Below, piece after piece: positions 193 to 58,757 of a stretch of 60,816 nt of DNA. The stretch comes from a virus (taxonomy: Duplodnaviria; Caudoviricetes): IMG/VR virus record IMGVR_UViG_3300037882_001949, positions 1-60,816 of that record, one strand, 5' to 3'. Position numbers and translations under genes: made by a program. Numbering within the stretch: the stretch's first letter is position 1; each line of letters begins with the position of its first letter. The notes under the pieces are model-generated. The model saw nothing but the letters and a program-made list of their open reading frames with translations. It had not been told where the DNA came from and made no database searches.

Positions 193-678
193 ATGAAAAT
201 AACAATAACGGATAATCCAGATACAACTTCAAATGATGCTTTATTAGCTAATAATATATCTTTTGATGAGTTTTGGCAAAAACACATTTGTCCAAATACT
301 GAATATGAAGAATTAGAATTTTTTGATGAACCAACAGGAATAAGAACTTTTAATTCTATTTATATCAAAACACCTTTTTTAGTAGAAGATATAATAAAAA
401 TTGTATGTAGTTTTGAAAGAGGTGAAGATGATTATGATATTATAGCTAATGCAGGATATGGACAAACATCATCTATGACAAGAAGAAGTATAGTTGGTAA
501 AAAGGGTATATATAGAGTATCTCCAGATTGCATTGAAGATATAAGCATAAAACCTTTAAAAGAATTTTCTAAAGATTATCCTAAATTTAATCGTAAAATT
601 TATGAAACTCTTATGAATGCTGTGGATGATTTTTATGATAATTTAAGAAAAAATATTAATAATGAAAACAAGAATTAG
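193..678 (+). CDS. Hypothetical protein
   Basis: 161-aa ORF with A-rich leader; overlaps the next ORF. Confidence 0.6.
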   Translation: MKITITDNPDTTSNDALLANNISFDEFWQKHICPNTEYEELEFFDEPTGIRTFNSIYIKTPFLVEDIIKIVCSFERGEDDYDIIANAGYGQTSSMTRRSIVGKKGIYRVSPDCIEDISIKPLKEFSKDYPKFNRKIYETLMNAVDDFYDNLRKNINNENKN

Positions 679-2078
679 ACAATTAACAGAACAAGAAAAA
701 CGTTCAAAAGGTGAACAACAAATGATTACTGATTGGTTGAAGATATTCCCTAAAGGTATTCTTTCTATTGTATCAGATACATTTGATCTTTGGAAACTAA
801 TTACTGAATATTTACCAGCTAATAAAGAAGCTATTATGAAAAGAGAAGGTAAATTAGTAATTAGACCTGATTGCTATTCAGAAGATACTTTGTTTTTAAC
901 CAATTATGGTTGGAAAAATATTGATGCTATAAAACAAGGGGCATTAGTAGCACAAGTAGAAGAAGATGGAAGCTATACTTTTGTACAACCAAGTAGAATT
1001 ATAGATGAACCGTATGAAGGTGAAATGTATAAATATACAGATTTTCATGGTAAAATGGATTTACTTGTTACGCCTAATCATAGAATGGTTTATAAACAAT
1101 TTGATAATTGGAAAGTAGATTATGCTGAAAACTGTAAACCTAATAATTATACAAAACAATTTATTAGAAGTGCGAAGGCGGTAAATAAAGGTAGAAAACT
1201 TTCTTTTATAGAAAGATTGAATATTGCTTTTCAAGCTGATGGTAGTTACCAAACAGGCGTTACTTCATCAATTAGATTTAGTTTTTCTAAAATAAGAAAA
1301 ATCCAAAGATTAGAAAATTTACTTAGAGAAAATAATATTGAATATACTACTTATAATCTAGGTGACGGTAAAACTGAATTTAATATTAAAATAGATAAAT
1401 CACAAGTAAGTAAAGATTTTAACTGGGTAAATATTAATAATTTATGCTCTAACTGGTGTCAAGAATTTATAGAAGAACTTTCACATTGGGATTCATCTAT
1501 TAGAAATGATGGAAGAATAAAGTTTGATACTACAAATACTGCTGTAATTTACACTGTTGAACTTATTGCTTTATCTTCTGGATATGGTTGTTTGATTTCT
1601 GAATATGAAGATGAAAGAAGTGAACTTTTTTCTAAAGTCTATACTGCTAATATTTTAATAGAAAATAAACTTGGAGGTCAATCTGTACAAGTAGAAAAAA
1701 CAACTTATAAAGGAAATATAGTTTGTGTTACTGTACCTACAGGTAGAGTTGTTGTTAAAAGAAACAGATGTACAATGGTTTGTGGTAATAGTGGGGATCC
1801 TGTTGATATTATTTGTGGGACTTCTGTAGGTTTAAAAGGTAAACCCTATGAAAAAGGAGTAATTGAATTACTCTGGGACATCTTTGGTGGCACTGTCAAT
1901 GAGCAAGGATATAAAGTTCTTGATCCTCATATTGGAGCAATCTATGGTGATAGTATTACGACTGAACGTCAAGTACAAATATATGAAAGATTGGCAGCTA
2001 AAGGTTTTGCAGCTACTAATATTGTATTAGGTGTAGGTAGTTTTACTTAACAATATAATACAAGAGATACATTAGGGT
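662..2078 (+). CDS. nadV: Nicotinamide phosphoribosyltransferase (NAMPT), exon 1 of a C-terminal portion; contains an intein and an in-frame TAA at 2048-2050
   Basis: Motifs GILSIVSDTFD, LVIRPD|SGDP, HIGAIYGDSIT and NIVLGVGSFT*QYNTRDTLG. Confidence 0.9.
872..1789 (+). mobile_element. Intein (306 aa) with LAGLIDADG-type endonuclease domain
   Basis: Starts CYSEDT after RPD; block B LLVTPNHRM; endonuclease-like AFQADGS; ends CVTVPTG...VCGN followed by Ser+1, so removal restores RPDSGDP. Confidence 0.92.
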
Positions 2079-4051: not shown

Positions 4052-4243
4052 ATGAAAAAACAAGTAAAAAACACAACTAAAACATCTCAATCTATTAGTA
4101 CTCATACCAAAGTAAGTAAAGGTATTTATAAACAAGTAAGTGGTAAATATGCAGTAAGACCAACAGTAAATGGTAAACGTTTACATGTTACTTTTACAAG
4201 TATTAAAGCTGCTAAAGCTTATTTAAAAGGTATTAATGGTTAA
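4052..4243 (+). CDS. Small basic protein, possibly AP2/arm-type DNA-binding
   Basis: KGIYKQ.SGKYAVR..VNGKR...TF.SIKAA pattern. Confidence 0.5.
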   Translation: MKKQVKNTTKTSQSISTHTKVSKGIYKQVSGKYAVRPTVNGKRLHVTFTSIKAAKAYLKGING

Positions 4244-45892: not shown

Positions 45893-45961
45893 CACACCCA
45901 TAAGGAATCGAACCTTATCCTTTAGTTTTGGAGACTAATTGGTTACCTTAACCTTGAATGT
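45893..45961 (-). tRNA. tRNA-Trp(CCA)
   Basis: Anticodon arm TTAGT-CTCCAAA-ACTAA; T arm TAAGG-TTCGATT-CCTTA; acceptor ACATTCA/TGGGTGT; G73; short D arm. Confidence 0.8.
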
Positions 45962-45966
45962 ATTTG

Positions 45967-46039
45967 TGGAATCTTGTGGTAACGCACCACATCCTCATGC
46001 TCTTCAGGCACACGCTTCTACTTAGTTAGCTTAGATTCC
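45967..46039 (-). tRNA. tRNA-Phe(GAA) with atypical T-loop
   Basis: Acceptor GGAATCT/AGATTCC; anticodon loop CTGAAGA; T arm TGTGG-TGCGTTA-CCACA. Confidence 0.78.
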
Positions 46040-56455: not shown

Positions 56456-56818
56456 ATGAAAAAAATAATGTGCTTAATGATATTAATAAGTCTAATATCA
56501 TGTCAAAAGAAAGATAAACCTATTGAAAAACTGTATAATATTGATATAACAGTATATCAGCAAGATACTAGTGCTATTATACCACAACCTGTTAGAAATG
56601 CTACAGTAATACTACAATCTAATAATTACTATGAGTATAAAGAGGTTATTGAAGGTAATTGTAACTTTAAATTCAATGATTTAAAAGAGAATATATATGA
56701 TTGTACAGTTATTGGTAAAATAACTACAGGTAGTTATAATGGTCAAGTTAGAAATAAAACATTAAAATTATATCTTAAAACTAATTATATTGATACTATA
56801 ATAGTTAAGAAAGAGTAA
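56456..56818 (+). CDS. Lipoprotein (probable start MKKIMC at 56456)
   Basis: Lipobox LISC-QKK; prealbumin-like PVRNATVIL...FKFNDLKENIY. Confidence 0.6.
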   Translation: MKKIMCLMILISLISCQKKDKPIEKLYNIDITVYQQDTSAIIPQPVRNATVILQSNNYYEYKEVIEGNCNFKFNDLKENIYDCTVIGKITTGSYNGQVRNKTLKLYLKTNYIDTIIVKKE

Positions 56819-56826
56819 AGATATTA

Positions 56827-57219
56827 GGGGAGCTGAGTTGGCTATTGACTCTAATATGTAAAGTATAATAAGCAAGTAGTGAGATGTAATCTATCACTTT
56901 AATACATGGTTATAAAGTCTTAATTGACAAAGTGGTAATCACCAACGAAGTAGGGTCACGTGCAGACGTCCTTGCGGTTGTAAAAAACGCTTCTGCAAAA
57001 GTGATTCAATTCACACCTTCTCCTAAAAAAGTAGAGTTAGAGTTAGCAGCCTAATTTAGGGAAATTCCATTTAAGGAGTCTTTGGGTATAAACTAAAATA
57101 TCTCAGATTTTATTTCTGTAAAAAATAAATAGTCTGTATTAGACAATAAACTTATACTAAACTTGTAGAAAATTATATAATACTATTGGAATACAGGGTA
57201 TCGTACACCCTGCTCTCCA
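56827..57219 (+). ncRNA. ssrA: tmRNA
   Basis: Acceptor GGGGAGC/GCTCTCC with G3-U70 and A73; TTGAC after the D-loop; T arm AGGGT-ATCGTAC-ACCCT; resume context TAATT|GAC; tag ORF 56926-57054 ending ELELAA*. Confidence 0.9.
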
Positions 57220-57579
57220 CAGGAGTTTTGTTAAACAAAGTAATAGTTTATTAATATTATGTAAAAATAACTAACATCTAATAAATGTTATACTTGAGAT
57301 GAAACATATCAGGGTGCTGTTGTGAAACATCATAAAATCAGATTAACATAAAACTATCAAAGTTATCATAGTGAGATAGTCTTAATTATATTAGCTAACA
57401 GAGGTAGTAGTTTACTTAAGCTTGCTGAGTAATATAAATTAAGTTTAACATACAGGGATAACCAGTCATGAATGCTGTATGTAGTCACTAGACTTAGTGT
57501 TTCAAGGGTAAAGTATAAAAAGATTAAATGTCTTGATAAAAAAGAGAAGTCTTGAAACTAAGCAATTATTAACCAAATA

Positions 57580-57628: not shown

Positions 57629-58757
57629 ATGAAAACATTTAAAATTGAAACATGTTCTTGCGGTTGTGGTAAATCATATCCTGTAGGAAAATCTAAACCA
57701 GCTGGTTGGAAACAAGAAGGTAATTCTGTTATTAGATTATCAGATAATGTAAAATTCTCTAAAGGTGATATTATACAAAGATTTACTGAACAAGGTAAAC
57801 AATATTGTGATATGATTATTAGCGATATTGATTTTTACTATAAAGGAAAAGATAGTAATCTTAGAGATACTTTTTATATAAGAGCTAAAATAGTTGAAAA
57901 TGCTGATATTCCTGAATATGTAAAATGTATTAAACAAATTTATGAAAATGATAATCCTAAAATAGGACAAATTATTAAAGCTGATATAAATGGTAATTTA
58001 CATGGTATATGTATGTATAATTCTATAACTTATAAAGATAATTTTATACCATCAACTAAAGAAGAATATGATGCTCAATTTGTTAAAAAAGATTATGAGA
58101 TATTATCTTTTAAAGTAAATACTTGCAAGTATACGTTAAAAGATAGTCAAAATGTATATAGCAACGGCATATTTAGCTATACATTAGAAAAAATATTATT
58201 TTATTTAACTGCTGTAAATAATCCAAGTGTAATACATAGTGTTAAACGTCTATCAGATGGTGAAATTTTTACTGTTGGTGTTTTGGGTACAACTTATTAT
58301 TTCAGGTGGATGGGAAAGTAATAATACAATATTATCAAAAATAGAAATATTAAATAGTAATGTTATATTTTATATTAATCAAAATGAACATAAAAATTTT
58401 AAATATGAACATGGTATAAATAATTGGAGAAAGTATATTCCTAAACAACCATTATTTAAAACTGAAGATGGTATTGATATTTATGAAGGTGATTCATTTT
58501 ATTGTGTAGATATTGGTCTGGTTAATAATTTTAAACCTTTTCCTAGATATGGTGGAGATGGTTTAGATTATAAATCTATAGAAGTTAAAAGTAGATGTTT
58601 TAAAGAATACAAAGCTGCTGAAAATTACATTAAATGTAATAAACCATGTTTATCATTAACAGAAGTATTAAATAATATTGATGGTTTAAATATATTAAAC
58701 AGAGATAATATTAAAAATAATATAACTAAACTAGTTAAATCTAAGTTAAATTTATAA
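57629..58757 (+). pseudogene. Single hypothetical gene split by a frameshift near 58280 (ORFs 57629-58321 and 58239-58757)
   Basis: SVKRLSDGEIFTVG in one frame continues as WVQLII...PLFKTEDGIDIYEGD...NKPCLSL in the other; possibly a sequencing error. Confidence 0.55.

What the first reader, a model, noticed from the sequence alone, without database searches (positions are those of the whole stretch)
56827..57219. Phage tmRNA with an exceptionally long 42-codon tag reading frame
The tRNA-like domain is intact (G3-U70, A73). From the resume context TAATT|GAC the frame reads (A)DKVVITNEVGSRADVLAVVKNASAKVIQFTPSPKKVELELAA*. Typical bacterial tags are about 10 residues. The C-terminal LAA degron is kept, but about 30 extra residues with protein-like, GC-richer codons are added and take a third of the RNA. 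The tag may be a functional peptide (adaptor- or protease-modulating, or a means of retargeting stalled products) rather than only a degron. The T-loop is also non-canonical (ATCGTAC), and no smpB is seen in the window.
Basis: partly seen in the sequence, partly recalled or inferred. Interest (0 to 1): 0.8.

Follow-up and report, generated by a model that had tools for sequence, protein, structure and literature searches.

The report
Phage tmRNA with conserved 42-codon tag
A crAss-like phage carries its own ribosome-rescue RNA (tmRNA) whose peptide tag is about four times the usual length and is kept by selection in related phages, so it is very probably translated, but what the extra peptide does is untested.

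Summary
Window 56827-57219 (+) is a 393-nt one-piece tmRNA gene, although ARAGORN and Rfam at its gathering score both miss it.

I collected 17 distinct homologues with a complete tag frame from viral and metagenome contigs. In the 15 complete genes the acceptor stem, T stem, P2, PK1, a P5-like helix and a 3' pseudoknot all show compensatory changes. One close homologue, L002, passes Rfam RF00023 at 84 bits over the full model.

All 17 keep a 40-43-codon frame ending in LAA or VAA. Several lines place the resume codon at GAC 56926:
- U-5/A-4 precedes it in 17 of 17.
- It lies 13 nt after PK1.
- Rfam's own alignment of L002 puts the resume codon there.
- dN/dS for the roughly 30 extra codons is 0.33 in frame, against 1.25-1.56 in shifted frames.
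- Gaps inside the frame are multiples of three in 4 of 4 events, against 7 of 32 outside.

The peptide matches no real protein. The phages carry no SmpB, ClpP, Lon or ClpS. The role of the extension is unknown.

A review gives 8-35 residues as the range of tag lengths. This is a new variant of a known kind. Earlier notes of this scan describe the same family on other DNA.

The parts
56827..57219 (+). one-piece tmRNA gene, 393 nt; CCA is not encoded (A73 is followed by CAG)
   Evidence: Homologous to 15 complete genes in alignment A5. Homologue L002 scores 84.2 bits against RF00023.
56827..56833 (+). acceptor stem, 5' strand GGGGAGC; pairs with 57212-57218, includes G3-U70
   Evidence: 7 of 7 pairs in 15 of 15 complete genes. 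Positions 4-7 change on both sides.
57212..57219 (+). acceptor stem, 3' strand GCTCTCC, plus discriminator A73
   Evidence: U70-C71-C72-A73 is kept in 14 of 15; L006 deviates.
57195..57211 (+). T arm: 5-bp stem and the 7-nt loop AUCGUAC (A54/U58 in place of T54/A58)
   Evidence: The stem pairs in 15 of 15 with compensatory changes. The same loop occurs in L005, L007 and L023.
56850..56856 (+). P2a, 5' strand; pairs with 57184-57190
   Evidence: all 7 pairs show double-sided changes. 75 of 105 cells pair in a rough alignment.
56872..56877 (+). P2 inner helix GCAAGU; pairs with ACUUGU at 57161-57166
   Evidence: 15 of 15 paired at each of 6 pairs. Compensatory changes in L001, L015 and L022.
56878..56912 (+). 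pseudoknot PK1: stem 1 is 56878-56884 / 56892-56898; stem 2 is 56887-56891 / 56908-56912
   Evidence: Stem 1 has 6 of 7 pairs in 17 of 17, in three sequence versions. Stem 2 has 3 of 5 pairs with double-sided change. L025 keeps the same topology with unrelated sequence (by eye).
56913..56925 (+). 13-nt single-stranded spacer with the frame-setting U-5 A-4 at 56921-56922
   Evidence: UA at -5/-4 in 17 of 17. The role of these bases is taken from E. coli mutagenesis (PMC2481249, passages).
56926..57051 (+). tag reading frame, 42 codons, from resume codon GAC to ...ELELAA
57052..57054 (+). tag stop codon TAA, in the loop closed by the P5-like helix
56962..56996 (+). helix inside the frame: GCAGA 56962-56966 pairs with UCUGC 56992-56996
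   Evidence: the middle pair is A-U in 9 and U-A in 5 of 15, changing at synonymous third positions.
57001..57014 (+). hairpin inside the frame: GUGA 57001-57004 pairs with UCAC 57011-57014
   Evidence: the third pair is G-C in 6, C-G in 6 and U-A in 3 of 15.
57022..57060 (+). P5-like helix: CCUAAA 57022-57027 pairs with UUUAGG 57055-57060, enclosing the last 8 codons and the stop
   Evidence: At least 5 of 6 pairs in 17 of 17; at least five different 5' strands.
57132..57157 (+). 3' pseudoknot (PK4-like): GUCU 57132-57135 / AGAC 57141-57144, and GUAU 57136-57139 / AUAC 57154-57157
   Evidence: double-sided changes in 2 of 4 and 4 of 4 pairs.

Best explanation
Window 56827-57219 encodes a working phage tmRNA that relies on host factors. 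It lies on the + strand, 8 nt after the stop of the preceding ORF and downstream of three phage tRNA genes. I infer that it is cut out of a longer transcript by RNase P and 3' processing, and that the host adds CCA, because CCA is not encoded. G3-U70 and A73 should let host AlaRS charge it with alanine (inferred from the identity elements seen). Host SmpB must deliver it to stalled ribosomes, because neither this phage nor its near-complete relatives encode SmpB. Translation resumes at GAC 56926. The frame is set by U-5/A-4, 13 nt after PK1. The ribosome reads 42 codons, through two conserved helices and the P5-like helix, to TAA 57052. Rescued proteins would therefore end in alanine plus 42 residues (43 in all) finishing in ...ELELAA. 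Shown here by comparison: the tmRNA architecture, and selection on the whole frame as a peptide. Inferred: the terminal LAA acts as the usual ClpXP-type degron. My best guess for the conserved extension of about 30 residues (motifs ITNEVG and SAKVI) is a second recognition segment for a host protease, adaptor or chaperone, like the long Lon-directed Mycoplasma tag. The confidence given is for the core claim: a real tmRNA whose whole 42-codon frame is translated. The role of the extension is far less certain, about 0.3 for any one version.
For: Homologues:
- The homologue in L001 was reached through a neighbouring gene.
- Further homologues came from a DNA pattern and from peptide patterns.
- This gave 17 distinct sequences with a complete frame, 15 of them complete genes.

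Architecture:
- Acceptor stem 7 of 7 pairs in 15 of 15. G3-U70 and A73 in 14 of 15.
- Compensatory changes in the acceptor stem, T stem, P2, PK1, the P5-like helix and the 3' pseudoknot.
- L002, whose frame is 92% identical in DNA to the window's, passes RF00023 at 84.2 bits over model positions 1-374. Rfam's alignment puts the model's resume codon on the GAC homologous to 56926.

Resume site:
- UA at -5/-4 in 17 of 17, while positions -3 to -1 vary.
- Upstream of the resume codon a 1-nt indel shifts the frame in the window, L021 and L022 relative to most other sequences.
- At least four sequences (L002, L007, L018, L023) have an in-frame stop 3-4 codons upstream.

Coding signature:
- Extra nucleotide states by codon position are 34/24/59; chi-square p = 2.4e-4.
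- Ratio of mean dN to mean dS over 136 pairs is 0.35 in frame, against 0.91 and 1.29 in shifted frames.
- For alignment columns 1-34, the extension alone, it is 0.33 against 1.56 and 1.25.
- In a codon-blind MAFFT alignment, 4 of 4 gap events inside the frame are 3 or 6 nt. Outside the frame 7 of 32 are multiples of three.
- There is no conserved start codon: codon 3 is GTG, GTT, CGT, TGT or absent. Ordinary initiation is therefore unlikely.

Other:
- No SmpB in 0 of 6 records, three of them 93-100% complete.
Against: - No tool calls a tmRNA in the window itself. RF00023 reaches only 13 bits there.
- ARAGORN, where it does call homologues (5 of 15 complete genes), proposes tags of 10, 11, 11, 11 and 32 residues, not about 42.
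- Part of the frame is also under RNA constraint. Two helices covary at synonymous sites, and the codons for N7 and E8 never vary among the 17. Not all conservation is therefore peptide-level.
- The dN/dS pairs share ancestry, so they give no formal p-value.
- The T-loop departs from the canonical UUCGA-type loop of the other family members, and charging and tagging are untested.
- The peptide alone gives a low-confidence fold (pLDDT 57.9).
- Expression is not shown. RNA-library contigs of relatives overlap the gene, but such libraries can hold DNA.
Confidence: 0.82

Rival explanations
1. The tag is short. Translation resumes late, near the 5' strand of the P5-like helix as ARAGORN proposes for homologues, or at GCA 56995. 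The upstream 'codons' would then be an untranslated structured RNA spacer.
For: - ARAGORN gives 10-11-residue tags in L001, L002, L009 and L010.
- The region holds two covarying helices, and some synonymous sites never vary.
- A canonical tag of about 10 codons would fit the loop of the P5-like helix.
Against: - ARAGORN's start points are not homologous to one another: 10, 11 and 32 residues.
- The codon it uses (GCT in L001 and L002) is TCT in the window.
- Neither that site nor GCA 56995 has UA at -5/-4.
- The extension alone has dN/dS 0.33 in frame, against 1.25-1.56 out of frame.
- All 4 gap events in the frame are multiples of three.
- Third codon positions vary most.
Confidence: 0.06
2. 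The RNA rescues ribosomes, but the long peptide has no role of its own. The frame grew when an earlier stop was lost, and it is kept only because a stop or frameshift inside it would be harmful or because the RNA must keep its length.
For: - Rfam's low-confidence alignment of L002 puts the model's P5 on the inner helix GCAG/CUGC, which could mark an older frame end.
- Total gene length (381-412 nt) is typical of tmRNA, while the region after the stop is short and poorly conserved.
- The peptide does not fold with confidence.
Against: - dN/dS of 0.33 and 17 invariant residue columns of 46, 9 of which use more than one codon. This points to selection on the amino acids, not only on an open frame.
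- The motifs ITNEVG and SAKVI persist in more distant members found at the protein level.
Confidence: 0.1
3. The gene is a decoy or relic. Its tRNA-like domain titrates host SmpB or AlaRS and no tagging occurs. This is what the authors of PMC4131195 suggest for the TLD-only molecule of mycobacteriophage DS6A.
For: - The T-loop is non-canonical.
- The phage has no SmpB.
- DS6A is a precedent (PMC4131195, passages).
Against: A decoy would not need PK1, the U-5/A-4 context, a 42-codon frame under purifying selection, or an LAA end with its stop in a conserved loop. All of these are kept across 17 sequences.
Confidence: 0.02

Closest known systems
Canonical one-piece bacterial tmRNA (SsrA, Rfam RF00023), with SmpB
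   Same: - Acceptor stem with G3-U70 and A73, T arm, long P2.
- PK1 followed by a short spacer with U-5/A-4.
- A tag frame ending in LAA, with the stop in a hairpin loop.
- A pseudoknot before the 3' strand of P2.
- Homologue L002 passes the Rfam cut-off.
   Different: - The tag has 42 codons. A review gives 8-35 residues as the range (PMC8012679, passage).
- Earlier notes of this scan give about 9 encoded residues for Bacteroidota; I did not check this.
- The frame contains two conserved helices.
- Only one 3' pseudoknot has covariation support.
- The window's T-loop is AUCGUAC.
- The gene is phage-borne and has no SmpB gene beside it.
Mycoplasma tmRNA with a 27-residue, Lon-directed tag
   Same: A tag much longer than usual whose extra residues carry the protease specificity (PMC8403727, passages). 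This is the model for my guess about the extension.
   Different: - That tag is cellular and evolved where ClpXP is absent.
- I found no sequence similarity between the two tags in any call.
- The phage tag keeps the LAA end and is 15 residues longer.
Published phage tmRNAs: mycobacteriophage Bxz1 group, Bacillus phage G, two-piece ssrA of phage Melnitz
   Same: These are phage-encoded ssrA genes. The survey that lists the first two found smpB only on bacterial chromosomes and one plasmid (PMC4131195, passages). Melnitz: PMC9004378, passages.
   Different: - The passages I read describe no long conserved tag.
- Those phages belong to other groups and infect other hosts.
- The window's family has no match among 50,697 GenBank phage records by blastn or tblastn.

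Membership tests
tmRNA (SsrA; RF00023) | 7-bp acceptor stem with G3-U70 and discriminator A73 (alanine identity) | tested here: met
   GGGGAGC / GCUCUCC plus A, 7 of 7 pairs. The stem covaries in 15 of 15 homologues.
tmRNA (SsrA; RF00023) | T arm with a canonical T-loop (UUCGA-type, as in the other family members) | tested here: inconclusive
   The 5-bp stem is present and covaries. The loop is AUCGUAC, with positions 54 and 58 exchanged. The same loop occurs in 4 of 16 family members with a visible T arm; the other 12 have UUCGA-type loops.
tmRNA (SsrA; RF00023) | long P2 helix joining the tRNA-like domain to the rest | tested here: met
   P2a and the inner P2 helix show compensatory changes.
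tmRNA (SsrA; RF00023) | pseudoknot PK1 a short distance upstream of the resume codon | tested here: met
   Both stems covary. The spacer is 13 nt.
tmRNA (SsrA; RF00023) | conserved U-5 A-4 before the resume codon | tested here: met
   17 of 17. Rule taken from PMC2481249 (passages).
tmRNA (SsrA; RF00023) | tag frame without a start codon, ending in hydrophobic or Ala-Ala residues, with the stop in a hairpin (P5) | tested here: met
   ...ELELAA then TAA. The P5-like helix has at least 5 of 6 pairs in 17 of 17.
tmRNA (SsrA; RF00023) | pseudoknots PK2-PK4 | tested here: inconclusive
   One 3' pseudoknot is supported. The 77 nt between the stop and that pseudoknot are poorly conserved, and no PK2 or PK3 was identified.
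tmRNA (SsrA; RF00023) | score at or above Rfam's gathering cut-off (47 bits) | tested here: not met
   The window scores 13 bits. L002 scores 84.2 bits. L009 scores 18.5 bits for a part only. L001 gives nothing at E up to 1. Only 1 of the 4 members tested passes, which says the curated model fits this clade poorly. Homology to L002 carries the assignment.
tmRNA (SsrA; RF00023) | alanylation, SmpB binding and tagging activity | not testable with these tools
   Needs biochemistry. No SmpB gene in the phage records.

The most novel reading that the evidence does not exclude
The conserved extension of about 30 residues is a phage-specific functional module. It would give every protein rescued by the phage tmRNA a fate different from host ssrA tagging. 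Examples: delivery to another host protease or chaperone, or a tail that occupies or competes for ClpXP. The phage would then reprogramme host protein quality control during infection, perhaps while its nucleases or host defences create many non-stop messages. The family appears to be confined to crAss-like phage contigs.
Probability: 0.3. Interest if true: 0.8.

Novelty: new variant of a known kind. Interest (0 to 1): 0.6.

Why it matters
tmRNA tags are treated as short degrons, and a review gives 8-35 residues as the known range (PMC8012679, passage). Here a whole phage-borne family keeps a 40-43-codon tag under purifying selection. The family is absent from 50,697 GenBank phage records. Its only hit in one genome for each of 185,579 species lies on a phage-like contig.

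This gives a concrete, testable case of a virus bringing its own trans-translation RNA with a peptide of its own design. It also shows that standard finders miss most members: ARAGORN finds 5 of 15 complete genes, and Rfam passes 1 of 4 tested. Phage tmRNAs are therefore under-counted, and their tags are mis-called where they are found.

Tried and rejected
- An exact 25-nt T-arm pattern in viral contigs found nothing.
- blastn of 56700-57350 and tblastn of the tag against GenBank phages found nothing.
- Sequencing-run search: all 24 runs listed held 0.09 or less of the sampled words. Laying four of them gave only contigs.
  - X3, an RNA library, has a 235-nt contig over 56853-57087 with 5 differences.
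  - X7, an RNA library, has a 215-nt contig with 21 differences and an in-frame 3-nt deletion at 57025.
  - X1 and X21 gave short pieces.
  - Such libraries can contain DNA, so I do not count this as expression and draw no habitat from it.
- AlphaFold2 of the tag with 17 sequences: mean pLDDT 57.9, too weak for a fold search.
- The ESM Atlas gave only unnamed small viral clusters, with scores of 0.85 and 0.83.
- The sigma-70 promoter and terminator scan was uninformative: 23 sites against 15.7 expected, and no terminator.
- Phage-encoded ClpP, Lon or ClpS as a partner of the tag: none in 5 records.
- A family-specific covariance model was not built, because the full alignment (442 columns) exceeds the 400-column limit.
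- Supplementary files of papers were closed. Tables of phage tmRNAs in them could bear on the novelty claim.

Full report
**1. The observation.**
The window is one whole virus record of 60,816 bp, estimated 66% complete. Its major head protein, portal and large terminase match phage families. The head protein is 38-42% identical to those of crAss-like phages in the top 12 listed of 137 matching records, all of which are below 60%.

- 5' strand GGGGAGC and 3' strand GCTCTCC, 7 of 7 pairs with G3-U70.
- Discriminator A at 57219.
- T arm AGGGT-ATCGTAC-ACCCT.

The frame is open from 56890 to TAA 57052. G+C rises to 0.40-0.43 over the frame, against 0.17-0.31 nearby.

ARAGORN reports four tRNAs and no tmRNA. 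Rfam at gathering score reports six tRNA matches only. In E-value mode RF00023 reaches 13 bits, against a cut-off of 47, at 56863-57178. The single-sequence fold has z = -2.69, which says little. The window alone therefore does not settle the matter.

**2. Relatives.**
- A neighbouring ORF (57629-58321) led to one viral contig, L001. There ARAGORN calls a 393-nt tmRNA that aligns with the window along its length.
- A 25-nt pattern from a shared block gave L002.
- Peptide patterns from the tag gave three more viral contigs, L005-L007 (5 of 49 pattern matches confirmed, two of them on contigs already held).
- The same approach gave 16 metagenome loci (16 of 133 confirmed).

I dropped duplicates and one incomplete locus:
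- L003, L004 and L008 repeat earlier contigs.
- L012 and L020 have the contig lengths and frames of L005 and L006.
- L017 equals L016, and L019 equals L018, over the region printed.
- L024 has a frame that runs off its locus.

This leaves 17 distinct sequences with a complete frame. Fifteen of them are complete, uninterrupted genes of 381-412 nt. L023 lacks its 5' end. L021 is interrupted (see section 8).

**3. It is a tmRNA.**
- Acceptor stem: 7 of 7 pairs in 15 of 15. G1-C72, G2-C71 and G3-U70 stay fixed while positions 4-7 change on both sides.
- A73 is present in 14 of 15. L006 has two extra bases at the junction and does not fit cleanly.
- T stem: pairs in 15 of 15, with compensatory changes.
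- Inner P2 helix (GCAAGU / ACUUGU): pairs in 15 of 15 at all six pairs. Double changes occur in L001, L015 and L022.
- P2a: all 7 pairs change on both sides.
- PK1 stem 1: 6 of 7 pairs in 17 of 17, in three sequence versions.
- PK1 stem 2 (UAAUC 56887-56891 with GGUUA 56908-56912): covaries at 3 of 5 pairs.
- P5-like helix (57022-57027 with 57055-57060): encloses the last eight codons and the stop. It has at least 5 of 6 pairs in 17 of 17, with at least five different 5' strands.
- 3' pseudoknot at 57132-57157: covaries.
- L002 passes Rfam RF00023 at 84.2 bits over the whole model. Its frame is 92% identical in DNA to the window's.

The Rfam model fits the clade poorly. L009 reaches 18.5 bits for a part only, and L001 gives nothing at E up to 1.

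ARAGORN finds 5 of the 15 complete genes: L001, L002, L009, L010 and L018. It misses the window, L005-L007, L011, L013-L016 and L022. Six of the ten it misses have UUCGA-type T-loops, so the odd loop is not the only cause.

**4. Where translation resumes.**
In E. coli the five bases before the resume codon (UAGUC) set the frame. A86, at position -4, is nearly invariant and essential, and U85 is highly conserved (PMC2481249, passages read).
- In all 17 sequences U and A stand at -5 and -4 before the codon homologous to 56926, while -3 to -1 vary. L025 fits as well, by eye.
- That codon is GAC, GGC, GGT, GGA or GCA.
- It lies 13 nt after PK1 in the window.
- Rfam's alignment of L002 places the model's resume codon on the same GAC, with moderate posterior probability.
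- Upstream of it a 1-nt indel shifts the frame in the window, L021 and L022 relative to most other sequences.
- L002, L007, L018 and L023 have an in-frame stop 3-4 codons upstream.

ARAGORN's tags (10, 11, 11, 11 and 32 residues) start at non-homologous codons. The codon it uses in L001 and L002 (GCT) is TCT in the window.

**5. The whole frame looks translated.**
- Length: 40-43 codons in 17 of 17.
- Extra nucleotide states by codon position are 34, 24 and 59, which is unequal at p = 2.4e-4.
- Seventeen of 46 alignment columns have one residue only, and 9 of those use more than one codon.
- Nei-Gojobori estimates over 136 pairs give a ratio of mean dN to mean dS of 0.35 in frame, against 0.91 and 1.29 in the two shifted frames.
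- For columns 1-34 alone, the extension upstream of the P5-like helix, the ratio is 0.33 against 1.56 and 1.25 (medians agree).
- The pairs share ancestry, so these are descriptive figures and not a test.
- In the codon-blind alignment A5 all 4 gap events inside the frame are 3 or 6 nt. Outside it 7 of 32 are multiples of three.
- A relative's contig from a soil RNA library has a further in-frame 3-nt deletion.
- There is no conserved start codon, so trans-translation is the only plausible way to read the frame.

Against a purely peptide reading, two helices inside the frame covary at synonymous third positions:
- GCAGA / UCUGC, with A-U in 9 and U-A in 5 of 15 at one pair.
- GUNA / UNAC, with G-C 6, C-G 6 and U-A 3.

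In addition, the codons of N7 and E8 never vary among the 17, although L025 has the other Asn codon. RNA and peptide constraints therefore overlap.

**6. What the peptide is.**
A profile of the 17 tags was searched against 1.84 billion representative proteins and gave 21 hits at E up to 0.001.
- Nineteen are ORFs of 35-73 residues that end with the tag, which means they are mis-called tag frames of further family members.
- Two are repeat proteins that match only 12 profile positions.

No real protein shares the peptide. The motifs ITNEVG and SAKVI, and an end in LAA, LA, or once LAT, persist in these more distant members.

AlphaFold2 gives one helix (residues 12-22) at mean pLDDT 57.9. The Atlas search gave nothing named.

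The phages bring no partner. SmpB was found in 0 of 6 records, three of them 93-100% complete. ClpP, Lon_C and ClpS were found in 0 of 5 records.

**7. Distribution and literature.**
- The family has no match in 50,697 GenBank phage records.
- In one genome for each of 185,579 species, the peptide patterns confirmed one locus (1 of 32 pattern matches). It lies on an 86-kb contig of a Saccharibacteria-labelled MAG that also encodes a crAss-like head protein (41% identity, E 5e-110). That contig is probably a phage contig binned with the MAG.

What I saw in papers:
- A review gives tag lengths of 8-35 residues (PMC8012679, passage).
- The 27-residue M. pneumoniae tag is called unusually long and is read by Lon (PMC8403727, passages).
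- Phage tmRNAs are known in mycobacteriophages, Bacillus phage G and Melnitz-like marine phages (PMC4131195 and PMC9004378, passages).

Searches for tmRNA together with crAss-like, Crassvirales, phage-tmRNA phrases or long tags listed no paper on this family. For most papers I saw only the listing and the start of the abstract. The two crAss-related papers I opened by passage mention tmRNA only as an ARAGORN step in their methods. Supplements were closed.

Earlier AI notes of this scan describe the same family on other DNA (e1-5892745, found by sequence; e1-6010961) and other long-tag phage tmRNAs. I saw those notes after my own analysis, and they agree with it.

**8. Verdict.**
This is a real phage tmRNA of known general kind. 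Its conserved, very probably translated 42-codon tag lies outside the published length range. Mechanism up to tagging is inferred with good support. The purpose of the extension is open.

Side observations are listed under Noticed in passing: group I introns in the T-loop of two homologues, mosaic relationships of the tRNA-like and mRNA-like parts, and others.

Noticed in passing
L021:395-649; L025:3121-4105: Two homologous tmRNA genes are interrupted inside the T-loop. L021 holds a group I intron (RF00028, 81 bits); the 3' half of the T stem and the acceptor strand resume about 430 nt later. L025 has an insertion of about 830 nt with a 187-aa ORF (no Pfam family), and the 3' half follows at 4094. 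From memory only: a group I intron in a tmRNA T-loop has been described in a Clostridium.
   Followed up: partly
window 56827-56870 and 57195-57219, against 56926-57051: The gene is mosaic. The window's tag frame is closest to L002 (0.92 identity), but its tRNA-like domain is closest to L007 (0.66 at the 5' end and 0.80 for the T arm and acceptor) and far from L002 (0.44 and 0.56). The AUCGUAC loop goes with a longer D-loop analogue (GAGUUGGCUAU) in the window, L005 and L007. This suggests exchange of modules between phage tmRNA genes.
   Followed up: partly
window 57629-58321 and 58239-58757 (+): Two overlapping ORFs match consecutive parts of one family: phrog_11079 positions 48-123 and 133-266. 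This may be a frameshifted or split gene, or a programmed shift.
   Followed up: no
window 662-2050 (+): In this 462-aa ORF only residues 376-461 match NAPRTase (Pfam). Residues 70-377 match unrelated PHROGs (ribonucleotide reductase, PhoH-like, thymidylate synthase). That is the pattern expected of an intein or similar insert.
   Followed up: no
window 45893-45961 and 45967-46039 (-): Rfam finds two further tRNA-like genes (38.1 and 39.2 bits) next to tRNA-Thr that ARAGORN does not report.
   Followed up: no
L006:2901-3295: This homologue comes from a 97%-complete phage record. It has two extra bases between the T stem and the acceptor strand, so G3-U70 and A73 are not in register. It could be a functional variant, an inactive copy or an assembly error.
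   Followed up: no
window 56941-56955: The bases ACC AAC GAA GTA GG are almost invariant at the nucleotide level across the 17 sequences, synonymous sites included. A possible small hairpin has no covariation. The RNA-level constraint is unexplained.
   Followed up: no
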